Origin: Calditrichia bacterium
GTDB lineage: Bacteria; Calditrichota; Calditrichia; RBG-13-44-9; J075
Length of the DNA stretch: 64,000 nucleotides
Direction: 5' to 3'
Assembly (NCBI GenBank): GCA_050633245.1
Contig: JBOEGD010000002.1
Coordinates: forward strand, 55,006 to 119,005
Positions 2,827 through 26,018 of this stretch are shown here, in pieces (position 1 is the stretch's first letter; every line of letters starts with the position of its first letter). Under the pieces are notes generated by a model, which saw only the letters and a program-made list of their open reading frames with translations, was not told the origin of the DNA and searched no databases. Position numbers and translations under genes: made by a program.

Positions 2827-3009
2827 TCAGGCTACGACTTCGTGCATACGAAGATATTCTTGTCTGAATTTTTCTGCGTGTCCTTCAGTAAACCAAGTAA
2901 TAATCGCTTCTGTAAGCGAAATGGCCTGCTGTTCTTCGTCAGATAAAGAGTCATAATATTCCTGAATCGCTTCCAGTTGCGAATGATAAAAACTATTTCC
3001 CAAATCCAT
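2827..3009 (-). CDS. 60-aa small acidic protein (DUF4032-like helical motif), paralog of the upstream gene
   Basis: SD AAGGGG upstream of the ATG. ISLTEAIITWFTEG matches ISFSEAISLWLNEG in the neighbouring gene. Confidence 0.7.
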   Translation of the reverse strand: MDLGNSFYHSQLEAIQEYYDSLSDEEQQAISLTEAIITWFTEGHAEKFRQEYLRMHEVVA

Positions 3010-3071
3010 GGTATTTCCCCTTTACTAATTCACGGTAAATTAAGCATGCGGTTTAGCGCCAGCAAAATCAA

Positions 3072-3236
3072 TTAAATATACGCGTCTTTTGGAGCGTGTG
3101 AACTCCCTGAACGTCGGACACCTTCGTTGAGCCAGAGTGATATCGCTTCAGAGAAAGAAATGGGCCGTTTGAATTCCTTGACCTTCTTTTCCCTGAAGGC
3201 GAGAATCATTCTGAGTTTCTCAGATGATCTCATCAT
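3072..3236 (-). CDS. 54-aa small basic protein (DUF4032-like motif)
   Basis: SD AAAGGAG before ATG 3236. Sits directly downstream of a sigma54 consensus and shares the IS.SEAI..W..EG motif with 2827-3009. Confidence 0.65.
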   Translation of the reverse strand: MMRSSEKLRMILAFREKKVKEFKRPISFSEAISLWLNEGVRRSGSSHAPKDAYI

Positions 3237-3262
3237 AACAAATCTCCTTTTTCTTCTCAAAA

Positions 3263-3278
3263 AGCAACTATAGTGCCA
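3263..3278 (-). promoter_or_regulatory. Sigma54 (RpoN) -24/-12 promoter
   Basis: Minus strand reads TGGCAC-TATAG-TTGCT, an exact match to TGGCAC-N5-TTGCW, just upstream of the SD of 3072-3236. Confidence 0.75.
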
Positions 3279-3588
3279 CGATTGTTTATACCGGATTATT
3301 TTGCAAGAGTTGCGTAAAACCGCAATTTTTCTGTTTTGTCAGCCGGCCTTCTCAAAAAAGATGATGAGATTTTCGACCCCTCCAACACTCAAGGTGATGC
3401 GAATTACGACACTTTGCGTCTGCCAAAATACAAGACACAAAGCAAGTTGCTTCAAACGTCTAGAGTATGAGGGGAGCACTAAATCCTTGTGAGGCTAACC
3501 ATGCAATCCAGTATGGTATATGTATAGAGATTATCAAATCTGCCAACGCGCGACATTGACGGCGGTCATAAATACATTTTTTTTGGAA

Positions 3589-4023
3589 TTAATACGAAGG
3601 GGAGTCTGGAAAACGTGAAAAATGGGCAACCTTTTCGAAATCACTTAGCTGAAATCCATCCTTGTCTGCCAAATAGGTTGAATGTGAAGAGCCCAACTGC
3701 GCCAGAGTCAGCCAGCGAAAATCACTGTGTTCTTCTGAAAGGCGGAGCTGGCCGGACGAAATACAACAGAGATAGTTAATGGATAGAAGTTGACCGATTC
3801 CAACCACTGTCCCAAACCAGGTGTCGACAATTCCACGAGACCTTACGCGGAGTCCGGTTTCCTCCAGTACCTCACGCTTCATACCAGAAAGAGGCTCTTC
3901 GTGCAGCTCGAGGCGACCTCCCGGTGGTCCCCATACTAACGGCGGATTTGTACGTTTTAACAACAGAAAGGCATCCTGTCGCATAATGTAGGCAGTAACT
4001 GCCACTCGGTGCGTCAACTCCAT
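3589..4023 (-). CDS. NUDIX hydrolase
   Basis: Nudix box PGGRLELHEEPLSGMKREVLEETGL and a C-terminal LSEEHSDFRW. Confidence 0.92.
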   Translation of the reverse strand: MELTHRVAVTAYIMRQDAFLLLKRTNPPLVWGPPGGRLELHEEPLSGMKREVLEETGLRVRSRGIVDTWFGTVVGIGQLLSINYLCCISSGQLRLSEEHSDFRWLTLAQLGSSHSTYLADKDGFQLSDFEKVAHFSRFPDSPSY

Positions 4024-4027
4024 GCTA

Positions 4028-4444
4028 TTAGCTTTCGATTGGGGAATCCAGGCCTAATGCTGCCTGCAGGACTTCCGGAATACGGCAGGGGCGACCTTTA
4101 AGGTTCACGCAAACCCAGGTGACATCTGCCTTTACAACCAGCCTATCATCACTGCTTCGTCTCAATACCTGTTCAAAAACACCACCCACCTTGCGGTTGG
4201 ATTTAACAGACGTATTGAGATAGAGTTCGTCGCCCGGTTCTGCGGACAAATGATAGACAATCTCGATTTGACGAATGAGAACCATGACCCCGGCTTCTTT
4301 TAGCGCCTTCAGAGTAATTCCTCGCCGATGAAGCAACTCCATGCGACCAAATTCAAGGTAATTCACATAGGTTGCATTATTAACGTGGCCATATGAGTCG
4401 CATTCATACGAGCGAACGGTTAGCTTCGAGATGCTTGGTTTCAT
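4028..4444 (-). CDS. Acyl-CoA thioesterase (4HBT/YbgC hotdog family)
   Basis: VRSYECDSYGHVNNATYVNYLEFGR motif. Start at ATG 4444 after GAGG. Confidence 0.9.
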   Translation of the reverse strand: MKPSISKLTVRSYECDSYGHVNNATYVNYLEFGRMELLHRRGITLKALKEAGVMVLIRQIEIVYHLSAEPGDELYLNTSVKSNRKVGGVFEQVLRRSSDDRLVVKADVTWVCVNLKGRPCRIPEVLQAALGLDSPIES

Positions 4445-4530
4445 TCTATTCCTCTGCTTTAGAGCATTTCCCAAGTAAGATAGCAAAACTTCTTTTTTGT
4501 GCCAAGGTAATCATGAGCGGGCAAAAACCG

Positions 4531-4624
4531 GTGTCAGGTGTCAGGTGTCAGAAACCAAAGTCAGAAAAGAAGGCCAGAAAAGAAAGGCAGATCACCAGTC
4601 ATTGAACTTTGAACTTTGAACTTT
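4531..4624. repeat. Short heptamer tandem repeats (GTGTCAG x3; GAACTTT x3)
   Basis: Read directly from the intergenic sequence. Confidence 0.6.
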
Positions 4625-4700
4625 CCCATTATTGTGCATTTTTTTTACACTCATTTAGGTTGTTAAAAAACACATGTGCATCGAAACGTCATTTAATTAT

Positions 4701-4716
4701 TGGCACGTAGTTTGTA
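4701..4716 (+). promoter_or_regulatory. Sigma54-type -24/-12 promoter
   Basis: TGGCAC-GTAGT-TTGTA, one mismatch to TTGCW. Confidence 0.55.
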
Positions 4717-4727
4717 ATTAGTTAATT

Positions 4728-4850
4728 CGCAAAGCGACTGTTACTATCCCAATAGTCGATTAGCAAAAACAGTTATAAAATCCCCTCCCTCCATCCCAGA
4801 GAGCCGGAAACCAAAGCGAGAGCTGAGGCGTCCGGCTCTTATTTTTTTTC
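4728..4850 (+). ncRNA. Candidate sigma54-dependent small RNA with C-rich single-stranded tract and intrinsic terminator
   Basis: 5' hairpin (GACTGTT/AACAGTT), CCCCTCCCTCCATCCC tract at 4782-4797, stem AGAGCCGGA/TCCGGCTCT followed by a U-tract. No ORF. Confidence 0.45.
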
Positions 4851-5039
4851 CTTAGGTTTATTACCTGCTGAAATCTTCTCAGCCAACGGGCGCTTATTAA
4901 AATCACTGTTGCTCATTATCATTTCTTTCCGGCAAAACAGTCTTTTTTTTTCAAGCCATATTTACTAAGTTTTCATGTTTTGTATGACGAAACAGTTATT
5001 ACGACCTACTAATGGCGAATACCTTTCTGGAGACTTGAA

Positions 5040-6401
5040 ATGAAAAAAATCCTCATCCTCGGGGCTGGACAAAGTGCCCCCTACCTAATCGACTACCTTT
5101 TAAAAGAATCCATCGCGAACAATTGGTTTGTAACGGTCGGAGATCTCGATGAGGAACAAGCTCGCTCAGCGATCGGCACTCACCCAAATGGCAACGCGAT
5201 TCGCTTCGACGTCAATGATTCTGCTATGCGTAAACAGCAGATCGAACAGGCCGATGTAGTCGTGAACTTCCTGTCACCAGTCTTTCAATACATTGTCGCC
5301 CACGACTGTATTCACTGCAAGACACACATGGTTTCGGCCTCCTATGCCAATAAGAAGGTGATAGATATGGCCGCAGATGCACAAAGAAACGGCGTTTTGA
5401 TATTAAACGAGATGGGACTCGATCCCGGTATCGATCATATGTCTGCAATGAAATTGATTCACTATGTGCAGGAAAATGGTGGACAAATTTCGTCTTTCGT
5501 TTCCTATGGTGCCGGGCTTCCCGCACCGGAAGTAGCAGATAATCCGCTGCGTTACTGCATTACATGGAACGCGCGCAACGTTGCCCGTGCTGGAGAAGTC
5601 GGTGCGCTCTATATGGAGGATGGAAAGCGCAAGCTGCTGTCGCACCACAACGTTTTTAATCGCACCTGGCCGGTAGAAGTTGAAGGTCTTGGCACATTTG
5701 AGGCCATTGCCAACCGCAACTCCCTAATCTATCGCAATCTGTTTGGCTTGCCGAATGTGCACACAATTATCCGCGGAACCTTGCGTTATCCGGGATGGAG
5801 TGAAACTTGGAATCAAGTTATAAAGCTCGGCTTCCCAAATGACAATATGCCTATTCCAAATGCCGCAGAAATGAGCTATCGCGAACTGACTCAGATGTTT
5901 CTGCCGATTCATCTTTCCGGTTCAAATTTGGAAAGACGTGTAGCGAATTACTTGAATATCAATCCAACCGGCAAAATTATGCAAAACCTGAAATGGCTGG
6001 GATTGTTTTCGGATGAAATAATCGGTGGAAAGGTCTCTACTGCCGCAGATATTCTGACGCAGCTATTGGTCAAGAAGCTACCGCTACCGCCAAACGGACG
6101 TGATATGGTCATATTGATTCACGAAGTCTACGCAGACTATCCGGGCGACAAGCCGAGGAGAGAGCATATAAAAACAACGCTTATCGATTATGGTCAGCCG
6201 GGTGGTTTTACGGCGATCTCTAAAACAGTTGGATTACCGGCCGCAATTGCGACCAAGCTTATCCTTACCGGCAAGCTTCCACTAACCGGTTGTCATATTC
6301 CAACATTGCCGACAATTTATCTGCCGGTATTAGAGGAATTGAAGCTGCATAATGTTGCTTTTGAGGAAGAAGTTCGTGAGTTGCCGCTGGAGGACAGTTA
6401 G
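5040..6401 (+). CDS. Saccharopine dehydrogenase (NAD(P)+, L-glutamate-forming; Lys9/AASS C-half type)
   Basis: ILILGAG Rossmann motif, NEMGLDPGIDHMSA, NPLRYCITW, RGTLRYPG and TVGLPAAIA. Confidence 0.92.
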   Translation: MKKILILGAGQSAPYLIDYLLKESIANNWFVTVGDLDEEQARSAIGTHPNGNAIRFDVNDSAMRKQQIEQADVVVNFLSPVFQYIVAHDCIHCKTHMVSASYANKKVIDMAADAQRNGVLILNEMGLDPGIDHMSAMKLIHYVQENGGQISSFVSYGAGLPAPEVADNPLRYCITWNARNVARAGEVGALYMEDGKRKLLSHHNVFNRTWPVEVEGLGTFEAIANRNSLIYRNLFGLPNVHTIIRGTLRYPGWSETWNQVIKLGFPNDNMPIPNAAEMSYRELTQMFLPIHLSGSNLERRVANYLNINPTGKIMQNLKWLGLFSDEIIGGKVSTAADILTQLLVKKLPLPPNGRDMVILIHEVYADYPGDKPRREHIKTTLIDYGQPGGFTAISKTVGLPAAIATKLILTGKLPLTGCHIPTLPTIYLPVLEELKLHNVAFEEEVRELPLEDS

Positions 6402-6460
6402 AGGTTGGCTAGAAGCAGGAGACGGATCATTGCATTGGCAACGTTGTCGAGGGTATAAAG

Positions 6461-6757
6461 ATGAAGATCAATAAAAGCTTTGTCGAGCAGCCCTGGTTTG
6501 CAGCGTTACTCTTCCTTGGCGTAATAATATGGAAATTCTACGATGATTTCACATGGCTTGAGCTCTTTTTTATCTGTGCTTTCGGATTGTCGATGGTTTG
6601 GTTTGCCATTAGTTTGGCATTTATTTTGTCGGAAGTACAATATTTTATTTCGACTGGTAAATGGAACTGTTTTTCGAGTCGTGAGTGGTTATCATATTTG
6701 TCTTCTATCCCCCTGTTGATGCTTATTACTCATATTAACTTCAACATTGTCTTTTAA
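6461..6757 (+). CDS. Hypothetical small membrane protein (about 3 TM)
   Basis: GAGGG SD, hydrophobic stretches, and a terminator immediately downstream. Confidence 0.55.
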   Translation: MKINKSFVEQPWFAALLFLGVIIWKFYDDFTWLELFFICAFGLSMVWFAISLAFILSEVQYFISTGKWNCFSSREWLSYLSSIPLLMLITHINFNIVF

Positions 6758-6778
6758 TTGTCCGACATTTACCTAAAC

Positions 6779-6810
6779 AAAAAAGCGCGGGTCTTAACCT
6801 GCGCTTTTTT
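6779..6810. terminator. Bidirectional intrinsic terminator
   Basis: A6-GCGCGGGT-loop-ACCTGCGC-T6 between convergent genes. A second hairpin GTGTCGAG/CTCGACAC lies at 6814-6835. Confidence 0.8.
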
Positions 6811-6878
6811 ACCGTGTCGAGATATTGCTCGACACCTACACCATAACTAATTCAATTCTACATCTTATTAATCGCGTC

Positions 6879-6968
6879 CATCCATGGTCGTATTCACCCA
6901 TGCCGCAAAACGGGTTTCATTCTGACCATCCATGCCGTAATACGGTTTCATCCTGACCATCCATGTTC
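6879..6968. repeat. Imperfect ~31-bp tandem repeat with CATCCATG core
   Basis: ccatgccgcaaaacgggtttcattctgaccat / ccatgccgtaatacggtttcatcctgaccat immediately after the LKR stop codon. Confidence 0.7.
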
Positions 6969-8282
6969 TTACACAATATGTTCACGCAAATGCTCAAAGC
7001 GTTCCATCAACTCACCATTGTGGGTAATTACTGCCCGCTTCATCGGAGCATCAATTTCCAGGTCTTCGATCTCATCATCATAATCTGCCGCGGCCAGTGC
7101 CGGCAGGAACTGCAGGAGCGAATCGCCAAATGCTTCAGTCGCTTCGCGTGGAAGTTCGGCAGGCAATTTGTCAATCGTCATCATTGCCACGCCTTTGCCG
7201 TCAAAGCCATCGGTCACTTCCCCATTGGCGGGATTATAAACATAGGTCGGCCTTCTAGATGTGGTTGCCTTAACCGTCATCTCAATTGAACCTTCAATGT
7301 CGCAGGTTATGTCACCAATCGCCTTCAGAGGAATGCCACCCTTTTGTTTAAAGGCAGCCTTCAAACCTTTTTGGGTAACGAGACGCGGATACTCAGGAGC
7401 CCAATAGATTCCATTTACAATTGCGCTTAAATATGGTAAATGCTCCTCAAAACGCCCCTGATAACGCTCGGGCTCACTAAAATAGGTAAGCAAATCAAAC
7501 GGTTCAACCACATCGATTGGTTCAAACATATCCGTTTCATAAAACTCTACAGAATAGACGTGACGATTAGAAAAATCACCACGCTCATAGAAACCTGCCA
7601 GCTCATCCGGCTGCAGGTGAATGACCGGAAGATACTTATACATTTTCTGTGCACCTTTGGAAACCTGGCCATATCCGGTAAACCCACAAACAAACGGCGT
7701 CAGCTCTTCCGGAAGTCCGTCAGTGATAATCTTGTCACCAAGTTCATCCAGTGCTGTTTCGGCATCGGCAAGCGAATCGTATGTGCTGGTTTGCTTGAGA
7801 TGGGTGAACGGAGAATCAACACCCAGTTTTTTCATACGTTGCCCTACCGTCCACAGCGTATTAATCAATCCGGCATAGCCGGCGAAGTTGCCAAAGAATA
7901 CTAAACGTCGGCCCTCGTCATTTGTAATCAGCTCATAATCCATCAGCGTGATGCCCTTGTCGGCTATCGCCTTCAGCATTTTCATGTTGTAGGGCTGAGC
8001 TTTAATGGTATGTGAAAAGAACAAATAGCGTTGGTTCGGCAGCAAATCAGCAATTGGAACTTCTTTTACACCGAGAATCAAATTGCAGCTCGATAGGTCT
8101 TTACTAACTTTGGCTCCGGCGGCTCGGTATTCTTTATCCGAAAAGACACGCGTATCAGAAGGCTCAACAATAACCGTCAAGTAATTTTCATCTATCAAAC
8201 GCTTCACCTGAGCAGGTGTCAGCGGCGCACGATGTTCTGTTTTATCTTTCGTTTCCCTGCGAATCCCAATACAGTCTTTCAT
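6969..8282 (-). CDS. Lysine-ketoglutarate reductase / saccharopine dehydrogenase (AlaDh_PNT_N fold; AASS N-half type)
   Basis: IGIRRETK..EHRAPLTP, LGVKEVP, FFSHTIKAQPYN, DYELI, FFGNFAGYAG, GDITCDIEGSIE and DKLPAELPREAT. Start at ATG 8282 after GGGAG. Confidence 0.9.
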   Translation of the reverse strand: MKDCIGIRRETKDKTEHRAPLTPAQVKRLIDENYLTVIVEPSDTRVFSDKEYRAAGAKVSKDLSSCNLILGVKEVPIADLLPNQRYLFFSHTIKAQPYNMKMLKAIADKGITLMDYELITNDEGRRLVFFGNFAGYAGLINTLWTVGQRMKKLGVDSPFTHLKQTSTYDSLADAETALDELGDKIITDGLPEELTPFVCGFTGYGQVSKGAQKMYKYLPVIHLQPDELAGFYERGDFSNRHVYSVEFYETDMFEPIDVVEPFDLLTYFSEPERYQGRFEEHLPYLSAIVNGIYWAPEYPRLVTQKGLKAAFKQKGGIPLKAIGDITCDIEGSIEMTVKATTSRRPTYVYNPANGEVTDGFDGKGVAMMTIDKLPAELPREATEAFGDSLLQFLPALAAADYDDEIEDLEIDAPMKRAVITHNGELMERFEHLREHIV

Positions 8283-8378
8283 CCTTGTTCTCCCTGCAAA
8301 AAACATCCATCCACATGTATCCTTTTCCAAACTTGGATATCCATCCTTACAATATACGCAGTTCGGAGACGATTTTAA

Positions 8379-9803
<1,425 letters not shown>

Positions 9804-19308: not shown

Positions 19309-20601
19309 CTACTTACGCAAATCAAGACACATCATCTTACTCTGATCGCGCACGATTAACATGCCTTCTACAATTGCCATCGGGGCCCAAATATTGGGAC
19401 GAGTCAACAGCTTATGCCGCGCCAGCTCCTGATAGCCTTCGGGAGATGGTGAAATCGCCACAAAGTCCCCGGTGCGATTATCGATCATAAATAGCTTGTT
19501 ATCTGCCAACAGCATGGCGCTACGTCCGAAATTCGGTTTGCGCTTGCTTTCCCACAAAATTTTGCCATCAAGCGTCATGCAGGTAAGACCATTATTGGTG
19601 CGATTATCATTTCCGTTGAAATAGAGGTGATCTTTATAGAGGATTGGGGGGTGAATCTGCACTTTTGGTTCTTCGAGACGAAATAACTCTTTTGCGGTGA
19701 AACCAGCGTCAGATTTTTTCACTTCGATCATTACCTGCGCTGCATTGTAGCCGCCGGTTAGGAATAATCTGTTTTCACCAACTTTTACAGCAGGAGGAAT
19801 AGCAATGCCACATTTAAAGTCCGCGAAGCTCCAAAGTTTTTTACCCGTCATCGGATCAAGCGCAACCACGCCTCCGCCGGGCACAAGGGAACGCGCTGCA
19901 ACAGCCTCTTCAGCCGGCTCCCAATTAGACGACGTTACCTGGACGATCATATCGGTACCATCGATAGTAACAAGTGATGGAGAAGAATAGCCGTTACTCT
20001 CCGATAGCTGCTGCGTTTGCCAGGCGATTTTGCCGCTTTTGCGATTAAATGCCACGGTGCCGCTCTTCTCGCCCTGCGGAGAAACAATCACCAGATCTTT
20101 ATACACCAGCGGAGATTGACTAAATGCCCAGCGCGGCAGCTCCTGAGCGTCCGCCTCCATAAAGGCATGACTCCACAGCAGCTTCTGCGTCTTTATATCG
20201 ACGCAATACAGCGTGCCCATCGCGCCCATTGCATAAACGTGGTTTCCTGCTACCGTCGCCGTAGCGCGGGAACCATCATAATCGAACGTTCCGGTTGAAG
20301 GGAAATCGATACTCCAGACATCTTTACCGGTTTTCAAATCGATAGATCGCAGCACGTCTTTCTCTCCACTCACACGATCGAGCAGATAGACCTTGCCATC
20401 CACCACAGCCGGTCCTGCATAACCTGCACCGACTTCAGTTTCCCAAAGCACTTTCGGACCTTCTTCACCCCAATTTACGTTAAGCGGGGTATTATCACCG
20501 ATGGCATTGCCATTTGGCCCGAGGAACTTTGGCCAGTCTTCGGCGGTAACTGTCATTGAACATGCAACAAGCAGCAAAAAAGCAAGAATGCGATTGAGCA
20601 T
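19309..20601 (-). CDS. Secreted PQQ-like beta-propeller repeat protein
   Basis: Signal peptide, EDWPKFLGPNGN N-terminal motif, repeated D/N..TGK..W blades and C-terminal WAPMAI....LIVRD. Confidence 0.88.
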   Translation of the reverse strand: MLNRILAFLLLVACSMTVTAEDWPKFLGPNGNAIGDNTPLNVNWGEEGPKVLWETEVGAGYAGPAVVDGKVYLLDRVSGEKDVLRSIDLKTGKDVWSIDFPSTGTFDYDGSRATATVAGNHVYAMGAMGTLYCVDIKTQKLLWSHAFMEADAQELPRWAFSQSPLVYKDLVIVSPQGEKSGTVAFNRKSGKIAWQTQQLSESNGYSSPSLVTIDGTDMIVQVTSSNWEPAEEAVAARSLVPGGGVVALDPMTGKKLWSFADFKCGIAIPPAVKVGENRLFLTGGYNAAQVMIEVKKSDAGFTAKELFRLEEPKVQIHPPILYKDHLYFNGNDNRTNNGLTCMTLDGKILWESKRKPNFGRSAMLLADNKLFMIDNRTGDFVAISPSPEGYQELARHKLLTRPNIWAPMAIVEGMLIVRDQSKMMCLDLRK

Positions 20602-20846
20602 CGTTTCTCCCTTAGGATTTTTGGTGAAAATAGAATTTGGACGGTTGAACTAAAATAAAATAGGCAGGATGGATTGAATTACAAAATAAAAATCGAATCG
20701 GGAAGATGGTAAATGATGGTAAGGCGGTTGGTCAATTGGGCAGTAAGCCTATGGTAAGAGGTGAAAGTGAGAAATGATCAGAGGCGGTGAGAAGCAGCCA
20801 AAATAGTACGCAAAACATGCATGAGAGCAACGAAGGAGGAGCAATC

Positions 20847-20976
20847 GTAAAGACGAGATGCTTTGCGTCTATTGAAAGGCTGGAGTAAAAGACACGATGC
20901 TTCACGTCTCAGGAGAAACCGCCACCAAGCCCATAAAAAGACTCAAAATCAGTAAAGGCGCGATGCTTCGCGTCTC
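20847..20976. repeat. Three REP-like palindromes (GTAA-A-GACGCGATGCTTCGCGTCT consensus)
   Basis: Copies at 20851-20870, 20890-20909 and 20956-20975, each preceded by GTAA. Resembles RAYT-associated GTAG-type REPs. Confidence 0.7.
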
Positions 20977-21004
20977 CTAAAAACTACTCTGTCGGCTTAT
21001 CGCC

Positions 21005-21090
21005 CGGCCGATTAAGCCAGCCGTGACATTGCTGTAGTAAATCGAAGATAAATTACCAATTAAACAAAAAAAGCAAATCATTTATGTCCC
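21005..21090 (-). repeat. Conserved 3' non-coding tail, copy 1 (IMH/hairpin-like) after the TIR-DUF1566 gene
   Basis: Shares ATGATTTG, ATTTATCTTCGATTTA (16/16) and TGTCACGGCTGGYTTAATCGGCCG with 22413-22497. Confidence 0.75.
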
Positions 21091-21096
21091 CACCAA

Positions 21097-22329
21097 CTAC
21101 ACTCGAGGCAAGTCGGAACGTACGGCACGGACATGCAAGCTGAAACTGGCTACGCGACCGTAAGGGCAGTAGCCGTAGCGGAAACTGACGGTCCATGCCT
21201 TCCCCGCGGTACTATCTCGATCCGCCGTCCAAATCCATCGCTGTGTACTGTCAAACACCGAATCAATGTATAAATCACCATTCTTTCTCTTAGACTCCAT
21301 CAGGCTCATCGCTTCTTCCAGTGTTGGCAAGCGCCAATCTGAATAGCCAGAAAATTTGCTCTCGTTCATATCGGCAACGTATTTTTCAGCTTTAGAATAG
21401 CTCAAATATTTTGCGTACCCCGATTGTTGCCACATCAACCCACTGGCTTTGTCGATAACGATGTCGCCTTTTTCTTCATATGCGTTAACAAATCTTTTCC
21501 TGACTGGATTAAAGTCTGAATCATAAAAACCGTGTTGTTTCAGCATCTGTTTAACAGCATCAACAGACAGTTTGTTTTCTGGTTTAGACCTAAAAACCTT
21601 CACTAATTTTTTGGAAGGAGTTAAAGGAGGGCTTTGATTTTCTCTTGATTTTGCCTCCTTTAAACGCTCTAACTCCAATTGCTTCTGCTTTAACTCTTTT
21701 CGGAGCTTCACGACTTCATCAGACGAAACGCCCTCAGGCACTTTAGCGGAGTCAGGCACAGATTTACTGGCCTCCTGCGGCAAAGCTTCGAGTGCCTCCT
21801 GTTGCTCCTCCAACTTTTCTTTGAGCTGCTTAAATTCCCGATGGTCTTCCAGTGACAGCCCAATATTTTCTGCCTTACTTGGGTTACTTTTATTAACAGA
21901 CTTCGGTAGTTCGGCTTCTCCTAATACACTACGAATGGTCTTGAACGCGAGGTCCAATCCATCCTCCTCAAATAAATCGCAATAGTGTATATCCGCGAAG
22001 GAGTCAGGTACCTTACAATTGTCCAACCTCACCGGGATGATAAACAGTTCACCATCCGGCATCTCCTGCAGTGTATCCAGCGCCAGCTTGAACTCTTTTT
22101 GCACGAATCCCTTATGAGAAACAGAAGTTTTGGAGAAGAAGATTATAACAAAGCGGGCTGATTTCAGCGCTTTCGGTGTCTCAATACGCCAGTTTTGCCC
22201 GGGCAAAAGATCTTTTTTATCCAGCCAGGGATCAAAGCCTTCAACCTTCAGCTTTTTGTACATCTTTAAAGCTTCAGCGTGATCCTCACGCGCGTGGCAA
22301 AGGAATATACGGTTTTTGGAGTTTATCAT
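21097..22329 (-). CDS. TIR_2 - coiled coil - DUF1566 (Lcl C-terminal, C-type-lectin fold) protein
   Basis: IFLCHARED, PWLDKKDLLPGQNW and FVQKEF (catalytic Glu). VIDKASGLMWQQ, GYSDWRLPTLEE and VRAVRS. Confidence 0.88.
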   Translation of the reverse strand: MINSKNRIFLCHAREDHAEALKMYKKLKVEGFDPWLDKKDLLPGQNWRIETPKALKSARFVIIFFSKTSVSHKGFVQKEFKLALDTLQEMPDGELFIIPVRLDNCKVPDSFADIHYCDLFEEDGLDLAFKTIRSVLGEAELPKSVNKSNPSKAENIGLSLEDHREFKQLKEKLEEQQEALEALPQEASKSVPDSAKVPEGVSSDEVVKLRKELKQKQLELERLKEAKSRENQSPPLTPSKKLVKVFRSKPENKLSVDAVKQMLKQHGFYDSDFNPVRKRFVNAYEEKGDIVIDKASGLMWQQSGYAKYLSYSKAEKYVADMNESKFSGYSDWRLPTLEEAMSLMESKRKNGDLYIDSVFDSTQRWIWTADRDSTAGKAWTVSFRYGYCPYGRVASFSLHVRAVRSDLPRV

Positions 22330-22412
22330 AGATAATCATAAGTTTCTTTTGAACGATAGCCAAATAAAAGTGCGTTGTCTAATCTTTTATTTGAGTACTT
22401 CAAACCTCAATA

Positions 22413-22497
22413 CGGCCGATTAAACCAGCCGTGACAACGCAGCAATAAATCGAAGATAAATCATCAAATAATACAAAGAACCAAATCATTAAGGCCC
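22413..22497 (-). repeat. Conserved 3' non-coding tail, copy 2 (IMH/hairpin-like) after the NACHT-DUF1566 gene
   Basis: See copy 1. Hairpin CGGCTGG-tttaa-TCGGCCG on the minus strand. Confidence 0.75.
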
Positions 22498-24573
22498 TGA
22501 GCGTACGGCACGTACATAAATGCTGCTATCGTGCTCAATGATAGGGTTTGCGCAAAATCCGAGATTGAAATCGACGAGCCAGACCGTCTCGGCACTGGTA
22601 CAATCTGCCGTCCAAGTCCACCACTGCAAGTCATTAAAAATCGGATGAATATATAGAGGCAAGCTAACTGGTTCCTGAAGCGAGAGCAATTCCTCTGTGT
22701 CCGGAAGCCGCCAGTCGGCATAACCACCAAACCTATTGCTATTTAATTCAGCAACATATCTCTCCGCATCCGAGTAAGTCAAAGTTTTATCAGAACCGAC
22801 TTGCTGCCACATCAAGCCACTCCAAATATCCAGAATCACTCCATCTTCATTATTACTTTCGAAATAAAAAACTGCTTCGAAAGAATTATTATCAAGCTCA
22901 ACATCCGAGCTCGGTGGACCTATTTGAATATAGCGAAGATTTTTTTTCCTTACCTCTTCAGCACTCAATACCTCTGCAGAAATACCATGATTTAATAAAC
23001 AGGATTCGACCTCTACAAACTCCGAAAAACGCTGCCGAAGAATATCTTTCAGAAAACGCCTCATCTGATCTGTCCAACCAACTCCAGGTCTTTCTCGAGG
23101 CGTCATCTCCAGCCAGCGAACAACATACAAATACTCCACTATGGAGCGGTGGGCAAACTTGAAGCGGTCCAGCGCATCGCGATTGAGCAATGACCGACCA
23201 GTTAACTGCCAAGTATCCAAATTAATATCATATTTTTTAGCAATCTCATCTATTTCAGCAAATAGAAAACCGATGGACTTTCCACCATCACTCTTATCCT
23301 CGTTGTGGAATAACTCAATAGCGAGACATTTGGAGAAACTATAAAGCTCATTACTATCAAAAATTTCACGATTTAGCCAGGCCTTCACAATCACCTCAAA
23401 CAGTTGAAAAGAATAGCGATATTCCTTTTCCTCCTCTACGAGGTCCTGCAAATAAGACAGGATTAACGGTCGACACGTTAAATCCGGAATTTTCTCAATC
23501 AACAGCTTTGCTTTCTCCGCTAGAGAGACATCATCTGGGAAACGCTTATGTAAGTATTCAGATATTTGCCCCTCATCAAAAAGCGATAGATAACTTCTGC
23601 GAAATCTGTAAATTTTTGTGCCGTCAATCCCGCCAACCGGCCCAAATCGCAAGCGGCCCGTCTCGTCTGGCACCTCTTCCTCACGCGGAAAAAATTGGGT
23701 GCGACAGGTAATCACAAATGCGCGAAAGGCATCGGCCCACTTGCAAAGTTGATAGACTCGCTTGCGATGTTGGGGATCTTTTTTGACTGTTACTGGATCC
23801 TTTGACTGGTTTTCAATCTTTATATTGCGTTCCCACGCAGCGCGATCTTCATCGAGTGCATCAAGTAATAAAATGGTTTCGTCTTTATTCTCGATTCCTT
23901 CAACAATCGCTTCCAGATTAAAACGCTCATCATTGCTTATCAGCAGCGGGATTAATATGAATTTATGGTCGGATGCTGCTGTATTCTGCACAGATCGCCA
24001 ATAATAGTTTAACAGAAAAGCCGATTTTCCCATACCACTATCGCCAAGCAACAGAATATGCTTATTGCTGCTTGCAGCATTTTGTAACCAATGATCCATT
24101 TCCTGAAACAACCGTTTTCGCTCAGTTTGGTTTTCCCCAAAAGCAGGATCGATATCCTGACAATCCGGTTTCACATAACAACTGGCAGCTTGTTCAAAAT
24201 CTTCCGGTCTAAAAAACATCTTGGTTACATGATCAACCTTATTTCCATCTATCGGTGAGGACTTCGGATCACCTTTGTCTGTAAGCAGTTTAATTACCCG
24301 GTCAATTTTTTCTTGCTTATCGACGCCGAGCTTTGATTTTATTTCTTCCAGCAGAGCGACTAGAGCCATACGGCTGTCGGGCAGCGTTCCGAAGTTCACC
24401 AGCAGATCGTATAACCGGCTGGAGAACTCATCGGCAGCGCCTTCCAATTCAATCTGTTGCAACATCTTTGGAAAACCAGCAAAGGTATTGTTCACAATCG
24501 TTCTGCGACGATTTTGCAACGAGAACTGTTGCGCGAAGATAGCGATAATTTGGGTTCGGATATCTTGAGTCAT
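22489..24573 (-). CDS. EAD8-like - NACHT (STAND NTPase) - DUF1566 protein (bacterial NLR-like)
   Basis: Walker A GDSGMGKS, Walker B ILLLDALDE, sensor VITCRTQFF, RPLIL and WHD FKFAHRSIVEYL. C-terminal GLMWQQ, GYADWRLP and VRAVRS. N-terminal ~97 aa homologous to the N-terminus of 24624-26018. Confidence 0.88.
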   Translation of the reverse strand: MTQDIRTQIIAIFAQQFSLQNRRRTIVNNTFAGFPKMLQQIELEGAADEFSSRLYDLLVNFGTLPDSRMALVALLEEIKSKLGVDKQEKIDRVIKLLTDKGDPKSSPIDGNKVDHVTKMFFRPEDFEQAASCYVKPDCQDIDPAFGENQTERKRLFQEMDHWLQNAASSNKHILLLGDSGMGKSAFLLNYYWRSVQNTAASDHKFILIPLLISNDERFNLEAIVEGIENKDETILLLDALDEDRAAWERNIKIENQSKDPVTVKKDPQHRKRVYQLCKWADAFRAFVITCRTQFFPREEEVPDETGRLRFGPVGGIDGTKIYRFRRSYLSLFDEGQISEYLHKRFPDDVSLAEKAKLLIEKIPDLTCRPLILSYLQDLVEEEKEYRYSFQLFEVIVKAWLNREIFDSNELYSFSKCLAIELFHNEDKSDGGKSIGFLFAEIDEIAKKYDINLDTWQLTGRSLLNRDALDRFKFAHRSIVEYLYVVRWLEMTPRERPGVGWTDQMRRFLKDILRQRFSEFVEVESCLLNHGISAEVLSAEEVRKKNLRYIQIGPPSSDVELDNNSFEAVFYFESNNEDGVILDIWSGLMWQQVGSDKTLTYSDAERYVAELNSNRFGGYADWRLPDTEELLSLQEPVSLPLYIHPIFNDLQWWTWTADCTSAETVWLVDFNLGFCANPIIEHDSSIYVRAVRSGP

Positions 24574-24623: not shown

Positions 24624-26018
24624 CTAACCAGCACCAAGTGCTTTGAATATCTTTTCGATTGCCACGGCTTTATTTCGATAATCCACGTAGTTATAAGACT
24701 CAAAACCAAAGGGGATTTCGCAATCGCCCAGCTTCACCGGGATCAGAAAGATGTCCCCCTCAGGTCGTTCCTGCAAGGCATCGAGTGCAGAACGATAGTT
24801 GCGATGAATTTCTCCGCGTGCAGAAAGCGCCTGTCTGGAAAAAAACACAATTGAGTAATCCGCCTCACGGATGTTTTTACGAACGGTTGGCTGGATGGAT
24901 TGTCCCGGTAGCAGGTCAATTGGCTGATACCAGGGAGAATAGCCTCGCGATTTCAATTCACGGTACATTTCTCTTGCTGCCGCATCGTCAGAAGGGGAGG
25001 CAATGATGGTGACTTTTCGCCCTCCGGCAGGCGCCGCTGAAGCAGGTTGATCCGTTTCGTGTAAATCTTTTGGACGCACGGCCTTGGGTGTCTGCCTGTG
25101 CAATTCATTCTTCAGCTCACTGCTTTCTTTATCGAGCAAAATCGGGAGATCTTTGCCGCTAATCCCTTCCAGCTCAATGGCATTTTTCGCCAGCGCAAAT
25201 GCTTTCGGGATGTCCATACCACCGCCAAGCCCGTCATAAAAAGCTGTTGAGAATAGAATAGCCGCCCGATCCGCAATCGCATCCTTCATTCCAATAACAT
25301 AGGAGATATGCTCTACAACCGCCTTTGCCTGCAGGATGGAATAACATGAATTGAGCACGACACAGTCCACTTGGTCAGAAAGAATGCCAATCAGATTTGC
25401 CAGAGCTTCTGTTTGCACCAGCTTGCTTAATCCGTTATTGTCTTCCAGAAAAATACCGCTCTCCTCGCCGTCAGTGCCATGTCCGGAGAAGTGAATAATA
25501 GTCGGCTCGAAATCCAGCAAGGCTCGACGCAGGTCAACCGGACGCACTGCCCATTGTGAGGTCAGTTCAAATCGTTCCCGATGTTTCGAGCGCTTAAGCC
25601 CCTCAGAAATTTCCCGCACTTCCTCACCAATTCGCAGCCGCATGCTATCCCTTGGATTGGCAGACAGCACCAGAATACGGACTTTGGAGTCCAGTTGTTT
25701 GCTCTCCTTAAACTCAGCTTTAGTATTGATTTGCGAGACAATCTCATCAATTTCGTTTTTCTTTTCACTCCCAACCATGTCCTGAATAGTACGCAGCAAT
25801 TCTTCAAGAGCAGATCTTCCTGAATCAAGGCGACCATAGTTATTCAGAACACTAATTAGGTGAGAGGAAAAATCCATAGGCGGTCCGCTGAAGTCGATCA
25901 TGCCCAGCAAATTTGGATGGTCGGAGAAGGCAGTAGTACAAATAGTGCGACGCTTTTTATCATCGTTGAATTGTTGGGTTAAAATGCTACTGATTCGTCT
26001 TCGGAGTTGAGCGTTCAT
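24624..26018 (-). CDS. EAD8-like - CHAT (caspase-like protease) - TIR-like protein
   Basis: ILVLSANP...LRIGEEVREI, IHFSGHG (His) and VVLNSCYS (Cys). C-terminal TIR fold PWYQPIDLLPGQ...FLIPVKL. Confidence 0.9.
   Translation of the reverse strand: MNAQLRRRISSILTQQFNDDKKRRTICTTAFSDHPNLLGMIDFSGPPMDFSSHLISVLNNYGRLDSGRSALEELLRTIQDMVGSEKKNEIDEIVSQINTKAEFKESKQLDSKVRILVLSANPRDSMRLRIGEEVREISEGLKRSKHRERFELTSQWAVRPVDLRRALLDFEPTIIHFSGHGTDGEESGIFLEDNNGLSKLVQTEALANLIGILSDQVDCVVLNSCYSILQAKAVVEHISYVIGMKDAIADRAAILFSTAFYDGLGGGMDIPKAFALAKNAIELEGISGKDLPILLDKESSELKNELHRQTPKAVRPKDLHETDQPASAAPAGGRKVTIIASPSDDAAAREMYRELKSRGYSPWYQPIDLLPGQSIQPTVRKNIREADYSIVFFSRQALSARGEIHRNYRSALDALQERPEGDIFLIPVKLGDCEIPFGFESYNYVDYRNKAVAIEKIFKALGAG

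What the first reader, a model, noticed from the sequence alone, without database searches (positions are those of the whole stretch)
21005..22620. Both DUF1566 genes carry DGR-target signatures with no RT or template repeat in the window (remote hypermutation targets)
Seen: both genes end in W-x-V-x-F-x-x-G-x-C-(variable)-VRAVRS. The variable codons are strongly NNC/NNT (acc agt cgc tac tac tgc cct tac ggt cgc; ctc gat aat ctc ttt tgc aac cct atc att cac gat agc agc att tat). After the coding ends they share about 80 nt of non-coding sequence (ATGATTTG, ATTTATCTTCGATTTA identical over 16 nt, TGTCACGGCTGGYTTAATCGGCCG hairpin), which is better conserved than the adjacent coding VR. Established: DGRs mutate adenines of AAY template codons in C-terminal CLec/DUF1566 variable regions, need an IMH plus a downstream hairpin, and can act on dispersed targets. 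DGR-diversified NACHT/TIR-linked CLec sensors have been reported in multicellular bacteria. Inference: the sensors of this island are, or were, diversified in trans, giving an antibody-like variable receptor repertoire feeding a caspase.
Basis: partly seen in the sequence, partly recalled or inferred. Interest (0 to 1): 0.86.

Follow-up and report, generated by a model that had tools for sequence, protein, structure and literature searches.

The report
Orphaned hypermutation-type sensor genes, shared tail
Two immune-sensor genes of a Calditrichia-like bacterium end in binding tips and a shared 85-base tail like those that a mutagenic reverse-transcriptase system rewrites in related bacteria, but this genome has no such system, so the sensors look orphaned and frozen.

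Summary
Both minus-strand genes (21097-22329, TIR + Lcl_C/DUF1566; 22489-24573, EAD8 + STAND-like NTPase + Lcl_C) end in the Lcl_C motif. They are followed by an 85-nt block that is 80% identical and occurs only twice in the 6.35-Mb assembly. Four-fold sites in the adjoining domains are saturated (6 of 21 identical), so the tail is constrained or was recently homogenised, not a plain duplication remnant.

Same-family relatives (record titles: Calditrichaceae MAGs) carry real DGR cassettes on Lcl_C and NACHT-FGE-sulfatase targets. A profile of 18 relatives' Lcl_C tails finds the 22489-gene tail as the best hit in the whole genome (E 0.0076).

This 97%-complete assembly has no reverse transcriptase, no bAvd and no template repeat. 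The two tips share no common scaffold. The NNY codon bias (18/20, 18/21) barely exceeds that of tail-less Lcl_C genes of the same genome (17/20, 17/20).

Best reading (about 0.55): orphaned former DGR targets in an EAD8/STAND/CHAT/TIR conflict island. Present-day diversification in trans is unproven (about 0.2). This is a new member of a known kind, of moderate interest.

The parts
21097..22329 (-). g1: TIR domain, charged heptad-like linker (judged by eye), C-terminal Lcl_C (DUF1566) domain; 410 aa
   Evidence: ORF. Pfam TIR_2 E 7.8e-26 and Lcl_C E 1.5e-22. PADLOC matches are to TIR models only.
21115..21195 (-). g1 tip: VR-like segment, 27 codons from W to VRAVRS
   Evidence: Sequence. NNY 18 of 20, no K/E/Q/M/W. 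No TR-like copy in the genome.
21091..21114 (-). 24-nt in-frame insertion in g1 relative to g2, between VRAVRS and the tail. It carries the stop codon now in use. The stop that aligns with g2's stop lies at 21082-21084.
   Evidence: Read: the 25-nt gap in the alignment is 24 nt in frame plus a 1-nt indel after the aligned TAA.
21005..21089 (-). g1 copy of the shared 85-nt tail: an A+T-rich ATTTG-type stretch, a 16-nt identical core, and a distal hairpin at 21005-21028
   Evidence: 80% identity; only two copies in the genome; 7-bp stem.
22489..24573 (-). g2: EAD8 adaptor, P-loop STAND-like NTPase, C-terminal Lcl_C; 694 aa
   Evidence: Pfam EAD8 E 1.3e-14 and Lcl_C E 1.8e-17; the NTPase is seen only below cut-off (AAA_16, nSTAND1/3/5, NACHT). 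Homologues carry nSTAND3 hits or are named NACHT by a source.
22498..22581 (-). g2 tip: VR-like segment, 28 codons from W to VRAVRS
   Evidence: NNY 18 of 21, one Glu (GAG) inside. No TR-like copy.
22413..22488 (-). g2 copy of the shared tail (the repeat block runs to 22497, into the last three codons). The distal hairpin is at 22413-22436. The tail lies in the 159-nt gap before g1.
   Evidence: 9-bp stem. A profile of 18 relatives' tails hits 22452-22491 as the best match in the genome, E 0.0076.
24624..26018 (-). g3: EAD8 adaptor, CHAT (caspase-like) protease, TIR; 464 aa. It is the likely effector partner of g2 through the shared EAD8.
   Evidence: Pfam EAD8 E 2.4e-15, CHAT E 8.6e-11, TIR_2 E 3.7e-16. 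PADLOC 'chat' E 2.1e-14.

Best explanation
The three genes form a small conflict (immune) island of the kind described by Kaur et al. 2020.

- g2 is a STAND-type switch whose C-terminal Lcl_C lectin-fold tip is the ligand sensor.
- Its N-terminal EAD8 domain pairs with the EAD8 of g3. That would bring in a CHAT protease and a TIR domain as effectors.
- g1 is a one-protein version (TIR + Lcl_C).

Shown: the domain content. Inferred from the literature: the EAD8-EAD8 pairing and the suicide or NAD-depleting output.

The two Lcl_C tips, and the 85-nt tail behind each, descend from targets of a diversity-generating retroelement (DGR). In same-family relatives, Lcl_C genes with this type of tail have tips rewritten by adenine mutagenesis from a template repeat.

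In this genome the writer (RT, bAvd, TR) is absent, so the tips are most likely frozen former variable regions: orphaned targets. The tail is kept far better than neutral DNA. It has therefore either kept a role (a recipient-site signal or a 3'-end element) or been homogenised between the two neighbouring genes.
For: Domains.

EAD8 as an effector-recruiting adaptor, and DGR-coupled CLec (FGS) sensors in such systems: passages read in PMC7159879.

DGRs in relatives:
- G015:C586 has an Lcl_C target, RVT_1, bAvd and a TR. Of 15 TR/VR mismatches in 104 nt, 14 lie at template adenines.
- G010:C199 has a NACHT-FGE-sulfatase target, bAvd and RVT_1, with 18 of 18 mismatches at template adenines.
- G010:C3 has 18 of 20.

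Tail link:
- By eye, 19 of 58 parsed Lcl_C ends have ATTTG-repeat tails.
- 18 of them, made into a profile, hit the g2 tail as the top match in 6.35 Mb (E 0.0076; the next hit is E 4.7).
- The best non-self blast hit of the g2 tail in 15 family genomes starts just behind the stop of a caspase-Lcl_C gene of G008 (E 0.04).

Tail-class tips are NNY in 337 of 354 codons (misparsed L123 left out), against 703 of 933 in the rest and 36 of 41 in the window.

In the homologue families, K/E/Q/M/W are nearly absent from the tip. TIR-Lcl_C: 0.040 per residue, and 48 of 88 tips have none. STAND-Lcl_C: 0.021 per residue, and 29 of 40 have none.

No writer here: RT, Avd; TR.

Signs of decay:
- five NNR codons in the two tips;
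- a 24-nt insertion between the tip and the tail in g1;
- the relatives' hairpin 15-mer is not in either tail (one search found 2 copies in the genome at up to 1 mismatch, both elsewhere).

Orphaned DUF1566 targets were noted in at least 26 other genomes of this scan (unchecked leads).
Against: - The tail is 80% identical while four-fold sites next to it are saturated (6 of 21). A long-dead signal should have decayed, so either the loss is recent, or the tail has another function, or gene conversion acted.
- The assembly is 97.13% complete in 59 contigs. In relatives, DGR cassettes sit on short contigs that break at VR or TR copies, so an unassembled cassette cannot be excluded.
- The tail homology rests on modest statistics (E 0.0076 and 0.04) plus position, and only the first 40 or so nt after the stop resemble the relatives' tails.
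- The tail class was defined by eye, and kin genomes are not independent.
- The NNY bias of the window tips is matched by tail-less Lcl_C genes of the same genome (17/20, 17/20).
- 10 of the 72 relatives' Lcl_C ends that I listed were not examined.
Confidence: 0.55

Rival explanations
1. The two tips are still diversified, in trans. The DGR (RT, bAvd, one or two TRs) would lie in the unassembled 3% of the genome or on a plasmid or phage outside the assembly. The conserved tail would be its landing signal.
For: - The tail is conserved far above neutral expectation.
- Trans-acting and incomplete DGR loci are documented: passages read in PMC10907252, and remote targets more than 100 kb away in PMC5758913.
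- In relatives, DGR cassettes lie on short contigs that end in VR copies.
- G008, a one-contig chromosome with no RT by two searches and no TR, still has two tips that differ at 15 first or second codon positions against 2 third positions. VRs without a resident writer therefore occur in this family.
Against: - No RT, bAvd or TR turned up in 6.35 Mb.
- The two tips would need two different templates: they are 61% identical and differ in length.
- There are NNR codons at 5 of 41 positions, against 17 of 354 in tail-class relatives.
- g1 has an insertion between tip and tail.
- No copy of the genome-specific hairpin was found in genome or metagenome collections by exact pattern.
Confidence: 0.2
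2. There is no DGR history at this locus. The NNY-rich tip simply reflects the Tyr/Phe/Asp/Asn/Ser/Gly/Cys-rich binding site of any Lcl_C domain. The tail is an ordinary 3' regulatory or terminator-like element, kept by selection or by gene conversion between two neighbouring paralogues.
For: - Tail-less Lcl_C genes of the same genome reach NNY 17/20.
- The W...VRAVR frame is the Pfam consensus.
- The hairpin part of the tail is unlike the relatives' hairpins.
- The relatives' nested hairpin also occurs away from CLec genes: only 5 of 30 motif sites lie within 250 nt of a CLec end.
- No RT or TR was found here.
Against: - The first part of the tail matches the tails of DGR-type Lcl_C genes and nothing else in the genome.
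- None of the other 6 Lcl_C ends of this genome has the tail.
- The closest Lcl_C relatives of g2 are DGR-type.
- The hairpins have no T-run, and no terminator-like site was called at either tail.
- No Rfam family matched.
Confidence: 0.15
3. The shared tail is a small mobile or genome-wide repeat (REP or MITE) that happened to land behind both genes.
For: REP-like palindromes do lie right next to it, at 20849-20976.
Against: The tail has exactly two copies in the genome. The neighbouring palindrome is a different sequence, with 25 copies. Both tail copies start at the homologous stop codon.
Confidence: 0.02

Closest known systems
DGR 'category d' targets: DUF1566/DUF823/Fib_succ_major, CLec2-type variable regions, exemplified by the Legionella DGR and LdtA (Wu et al. 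2018, PMC5758913; passages read)
   Same: A C-terminal Lcl_C/DUF1566 lectin-fold tip, variable codons of NNY type, a conserved constant end, and an inverted repeat downstream.
   Different: LdtA is a surface lipoprotein with its RT, Avd and TR beside it. Here the tips sit on cytoplasmic TIR and STAND fusions, and no RT, Avd or TR is in the genome.
DGR-diversified CLec sensors of conflict systems: Dore et al. 2024 (PMC10907252; abstract and two passages read) and Kaur et al. 2020 (PMC7159879; passages read)
   Same: STAND/NACHT, TIR and caspase-like domains joined to a C-terminal CLec tip; EAD adaptor logic; incomplete loci and candidate trans action.
   Different: The passages read describe FGS-type CLec domains, in multicellular bacteria, with TRs found in the genome and diversification seen in natural populations. 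Here the tip is Lcl_C type, the lineage is Calditrichia-like (record titles), no TR or RT is present, and no population data exist. 'DUF1566' and 'Lcl' do not occur in the main text of PMC10907252, and 'DUF1566' does not occur in that of PMC7159879 ('Lcl' was not looked up there). Supplements were not seen.
DGR cassettes of same-family relatives found here (G015:C586, Lcl_C target; G010:C199, NACHT-FGE-sulfatase target)
   Same: The same bacterial family, the same Lcl_C subtype (49% aa identity to the g2 domain), and an ATTTG-type post-stop tail.
   Different: Those have RVT_1, bAvd and a TR with adenine-specific mismatches. The window has none, and its tail ends in a different hairpin.
Orphaned DUF1566 DGR targets noted earlier in this scan
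   Same: A DGR-type tip without an RT or TR.
   Different: Those are mostly surface or phage proteins. Here the tips sit on immune-type TIR and STAND fusions, and two copies share a conserved tail.

Membership tests
Active DGR target (variable region) | A template repeat in the genome that matches the VR except at template adenines | tested here: not met
   Permissive blastn of both tips plus tails against the whole assembly found only each other. tblastn with a relative's TR reading, and an AAY-rich frame scan, found no TR-like stretch.
Active DGR target (variable region) | A DGR-type reverse transcriptase in the genome | tested here: not met
   PF00078: 0 matches among 4 candidates, with the control ringing in 3 of 14 genomes. 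tblastn with six RTs of relatives found nothing at E <= 0.01. The G010 RT protein found nothing. The assembly is 97.13% complete.
Active DGR target (variable region) | An accessory protein (bAvd) in the genome | tested here: not met
   PF22296: three matches, all below cut-off (best 26.7 bits against 40). The G015 Avd gave no tblastn hit. The ten PF05635 four-helix-bundle genes lie elsewhere in the genome.
Active DGR target (variable region) | A C-terminal CLec-fold tip of a class used by DGRs | tested here: met
   Lcl_C (PF07603) at the extreme C-terminus of both genes. The class is listed as category d in PMC5758913. The fold itself was not modelled.
Active DGR target (variable region) | Variable codons of NNY type (from AAY) and no K/E/Q/M/W | tested here: inconclusive
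   18/20 and 18/21 NNY, with one Glu. Tail-class relatives: 337/354. Tail-less Lcl_C genes of the same genome: 17/20, 17/20, 15/21, 13/19 and 11/22.
Active DGR target (variable region) | An IMH at the VR end and an inverted repeat downstream | tested here: inconclusive
   A 7-9 bp inverted repeat lies about 55-90 nt after the stops. An IMH cannot be defined without a TR. Such repeats were found in only 127 of 372 DGRs (PMC5758913).
Active DGR target (variable region) | Variation within a population confined to the VR | not testable with these tools
   No sequencing run was listed. No homologue closer than 54% or 41% exists.
EAD-coupled STAND conflict system (Kaur et al. 2020) | The same EAD adaptor on a core NTPase and on a separate effector protein | tested here: met
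   EAD8 (PF19961) at residues 4-95 of both g2 and g3. Physical pairing was not tested.
EAD-coupled STAND conflict system (Kaur et al. 2020) | A STAND-type P-loop NTPase core | tested here: inconclusive
   Only sub-threshold Pfam matches (AAA_16 19.8 bits, nSTAND1/3/5, NACHT). Homologues at 38-41% identity carry nSTAND3 hits or are named NACHT by a source.
EAD-coupled STAND conflict system (Kaur et al. 2020) | Effector domains of the death or NADase type | tested here: met
   CHAT and TIR_2 in g3, TIR_2 in g1. Catalytic residues were not checked.

The most novel reading that the evidence does not exclude
The two tails are live landing signals for a DGR that is not part of the chromosome, for example one carried by a plasmid or phage that comes and goes. 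Calditrichia-like bacteria would then keep arrays of 'writable' immune sensors that are reprogrammed only when the mobile writer is present. The closed G008 chromosome would be a second case: it has two freshly DGR-patterned tips and no RT or TR.
Probability: 0.15. Interest if true: 0.7.

Novelty: new member of a known kind. Interest (0 to 1): 0.38.

Why it matters
If the reading is right, it extends DGR-written lectin-fold sensors on STAND, TIR and caspase immune modules to Calditrichia-like bacteria, and to the DUF1566 (Lcl_C) tip class. It also gives a clear example of what such sensors look like after the writer is lost.

The more useful by-product is the tail. Lcl_C targets of this family carry a recognisable post-stop element, which could help to find orphan or remote DGR targets and to test what marks a recipient site. 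That part of DGR biology is still poorly understood.

For this window alone the result is mostly a clarification. The 'antibody-like repertoire feeding a caspase' idea is not supported as a present-day process here.

Tried and rejected
1. Search for a TR or close variants in public collections.
- A 17-nt pattern from the constant end of both tips gave at least 119 genome stretches and 3 viral ones. None of the 122 stored loci resembled the tips or tails beyond the pattern, so these were chance hits.
- The genome-specific hairpin pattern gave 0 hits in metagenome and genome collections.
- A 22-nt pattern from the tail core gave 3 metagenome hits with no Lcl_C gene upstream, so these were chance too.

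2. Sequencing runs for read-level variation: none was listed.

3. Rfam on 20500-22700 at E <= 1 gave no family.

4. The search for related loci with g2 in genome contigs gave no confirmed relative. The genome search was used instead.

5. Intrinsic terminator or promoter role for the tail.
- No terminator-like site was called at either tail.
- Promoter-like sites lie at 22325-22381, between the g2 tail and the g1 start. They are no more numerous than in shuffles (10 against 8.8).

6. Whole-tail folds are not clearly more stable than shuffles (z -0.9 and -1.7). Only the distal hairpin is shared.

7. I first took the relatives' nested hairpin (15-mer motif, 7-9 copies per genome against 0-1 in the control) for a DGR-specific mark. 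Only 5 of 30 sites lie within 250 nt of a CLec end, so I dropped that claim.

8. Downstream of six tail-class genes of relatives (up to about 4 kb each), plus a seventh whose fetched stretch reached only about 0.5 kb (G010:C285), I looked for TR, RT and Avd. I found only bAvd-like genes, behind two further tail-class genes, G010:C122 and G005:C1079. The TR of those genes was not found in five genomes either.

9. Earlier notes of this scan: nothing for this genome or this sequence. A word search gave 26 orphan-DUF1566 notes.

10. The GC content of the island (0.42-0.48) is not distinct from its flanks, and there are no tRNA genes in the window.


Full report
WHAT IS THERE

Three minus-strand genes lie between a PQQ-propeller-like gene and a thioesterase gene.
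- g1 (21097-22329): TIR, a charged linker, then Lcl_C.
- g2 (22489-24573): EAD8, a P-loop NTPase seen only below Pfam cut-offs, then Lcl_C.
- g3 (24624-26018): EAD8, CHAT, then TIR.

PADLOC recognises only the TIR and CHAT parts. No solved structure matches g2 by sequence.

According to the passages I read in Kaur et al. 2020 (PMC7159879), EAD8 is one of the adaptors that recruit effectors to a core component. The shared EAD8 of g2 and g3 therefore suggests a sensor-effector pair. This is inferred, not tested here.

CHECK OF THE OBSERVATION

Both Lcl_C genes end in W-x-V-x-F-x-x-G-x-C, a variable stretch, then VRAVRS. Behind the stops lies an 85-nt block (21005-21089 and 22413-22497) at 80% identity. 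It has a 16-nt identical core and a distal hairpin of 7-9 bp.

In the 6,345,459-base assembly the block occurs only twice. All 15 further blast matches have E >= 1.8.

The DNA beside it is much less alike.
- The last 160 coding nt are 61% identical.
- Over 120 aligned codons of the Lcl_C domains, identity is 47% (aa) and 56% (nt), and 42% at third positions.
- Only 6 of 21 four-fold sites are identical.

So the tail is not a neutral leftover of a duplication. It is either under constraint or was homogenised later.

Relative to g2, g1 has a 24-nt in-frame insertion (21091-21114) between VRAVRS and the tail. This insertion supplies its present stop. The stop that aligns with g2's is still there at 21082-21084.

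The NNY bias is real (18/20 and 18/21). Other Lcl_C ends of the same genome, without any tail, reach 17/20, 17/20, 15/21, 13/19 and 11/22.

IS THERE A WRITER?

None was found in this assembly, which is 97.13% complete in 59 contigs.
- No RVT_1 match.
- No tblastn match to six DGR reverse transcriptases and one Avd taken from relatives.
- No match to a G010 RT protein.
- No bAvd above cut-off.
- Neither tip has another copy in the genome.
- A search with the reading of a relative's TR, and a scan for AAY-rich frames, found no template-like stretch.

WHAT RELATIVES SHOW

UvrC of the window is 63-73% identical to MAGs titled Calditrichaceae, Calditrichia or Caldithrix.

Among 40 relatives, 17 have an RVT_1 match at E <= 0.001 (16 of them above the family's cut-off), including 8 of 15 in the same family. 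Three loci are true DGRs.
- G015:C586 has a 454-aa Lcl_C target, RVT_1, bAvd and a TR. Of 15 mismatches to the VR over 104 nt, 14 lie at template adenines.
- G010:C199 has a NACHT-FGE-sulfatase target, bAvd and RVT_1, with 18 of 18 mismatches at adenines.
- G010:C3 has 18 of 20.

So DGR-written STAND and CLec sensors exist in this family.

I listed 72 Lcl_C ends of relatives and examined 62 of them: 60 fetched and two from other loci. Ten were not examined. Four records were misparsed by my frame rule (L114, L123, L126, L155).

By eye, 19 of the 58 ends that have a nearby stop carry a common kind of tail. This count includes the window and own-genome ends. The tail has two to six ATTTG-type octamers right after the stop, then a T-run, then hairpins.

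These tail-class genes include:
- the G015 cassette;
- two genes followed by a bAvd gene;
- pairs of tips inside one genome that differ almost only at codon positions 1-2. The G008 pair has 15 such differences against 2 at position 3, in the last 34 codons.

Tail-class tips are NNY in 337 of 354 codons (L123 left out), against 703 of 933 for all other ends.

LINK TO THE WINDOW

- A profile of 18 relatives' tails, searched over both strands of the own genome, gives window 22452-22491 as its best hit. That is exactly the start of the g2 tail. E is 0.0076, and the next hit has E 4.7.
- Conversely, the best non-self hit of the g2 tail in 15 family genomes (E 0.04) begins just behind the stop of a caspase-Lcl_C gene of G008.
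- The g1 tail is tied in only through its 80-82% identity to the g2 tail.
- The best Lcl_C-only matches of the g2 domain are tail-class or DGR-type genes of other genera (46-53% identity). g1 ranks about sixteenth at 47%.
- The distal hairpin of the window tails is specific to this genome. It gave no exact hit in genome or metagenome collections.
- The relatives' hairpin motif is not in either tail; the genome holds only 2 copies at up to 1 mismatch, both elsewhere. That motif is also not DGR-specific: only 5 of 30 sites lie within 250 nt of a CLec end.

WIDER FAMILIES

TIR-Lcl_C and STAND-Lcl_C proteins are common in metagenomes. There are 1757 hits at E <= 1e-10 and 468 hits at E <= 1e-20, each among 8000 scored candidates.

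No hit is closer than 54% (g1) or 41% (g2), so no population variants are available.

The tips of these homologues almost lack K, E, Q, M and W.
- TIR-Lcl_C: 0.040 per residue, and 48 of 88 tips have none.
- STAND-Lcl_C: 0.021 per residue, and 29 of 40 tips have none.

This is what AAY mutagenesis would give.

The same NTPase core is also found fused to FGE-sulfatase or to pentapeptide repeats.

READING

Most likely (about 0.55), g1 and g2 are orphaned former DGR targets inside an EAD8/STAND/CHAT/TIR conflict island. Their tips were written by adenine mutagenesis in an ancestor and are now frozen. The tail is the remnant of a target-associated 3' element.

The main fact against a long-dead relic is the tail's conservation. 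It keeps three ideas open:
- a writer outside the assembly (about 0.2);
- a second function of the tail;
- gene conversion.

A reading with no DGR history at all (about 0.15) is weakened by the tail's specific match to DGR-type Lcl_C tails. A genome-wide repeat is excluded.

COMPARISON WITH WHAT IS KNOWN

- DUF1566-type VRs are category d of Wu et al. 2018.
- Remote targets, and a downstream inverted repeat in 127 of 372 DGRs, are described there too (passages read).
- DGR-written CLec sensors on conflict systems, and candidate trans action, are described by Dore et al. 2024 (abstract and two passages) and by Kaur et al. 2020.
- Orphan DUF1566 targets were noted in at least 26 other genomes of this scan (unchecked).

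The finding is therefore a new member of a known kind. Supplementary tables of these papers were not seen and may already list such targets.

NOT TESTABLE HERE

Read-level variation could not be tested: no run was listed. Whether the tail acts in retrohoming could not be tested either.

Noticed in passing
window 20849-20976: Three copies of a 23-nt palindromic element lie just beyond the g1 tail. The element has 25 copies (up to 4 mismatches) on 11 contigs of the genome, so it is a REP-like dispersed hairpin unrelated to the tail.
   Followed up: yes
G008:C1:2670939-2671190 and 3270868-3271060 (loci L167, L170): A one-contig chromosome of a same-family relative has two Lcl_C tips, one on a caspase-Lcl_C protein. 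In the last 34 codons they differ at 15 first or second codon positions against 2 third positions. Yet no RT was found by PF00078 or by a family RT protein, and there is no third (TR) copy. This looks like freshly written VRs without a resident writer.
   Followed up: partly
L054 (G010:C199) 2934-8227: A complete DGR cassette on a NACHT-FGE-sulfatase sensor (target, bAvd, TR, RT). The target is split into two frames near an exact 55-nt duplication (5849-5903 = 6004-6058), which may be an assembly artefact or a real break.
   Followed up: partly
L050 (G015:C586) 7057-8904: The stop-to-stop frame holding the DGR RT (615 aa) also gives a weak MutS domain I match at residues 514-579 (E 1.4e-5). 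It may be an artefact of the long open frame.
   Followed up: no
own genome, 10 places (e.g. G000:C31:48203-48517, C2:261702-262013): Ten genes of the 23S_rRNA_IVP four-helix-bundle family (PF05635) are scattered over the genome. None is near the island and none reaches the bAvd cut-off.
   Followed up: partly
relatives' loci L077-L106: In genera g9 and g11 a nested hairpin occurs 7-9 times per genome, as counted by its 15-nt 5' motif. It has a conserved outer stem, an inner stem that varies with paired changes, and a 4-nt loop. It lies behind some DGR VRs of both Lcl_C and FGE type, but mostly elsewhere.
   Followed up: partly
proteins P0181-P0239: The NTPase core of g2 recurs with three different C-terminal sensor modules: Lcl_C, FGE-sulfatase and pentapeptide repeats. 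This looks like a swappable sensor slot.
   Followed up: no
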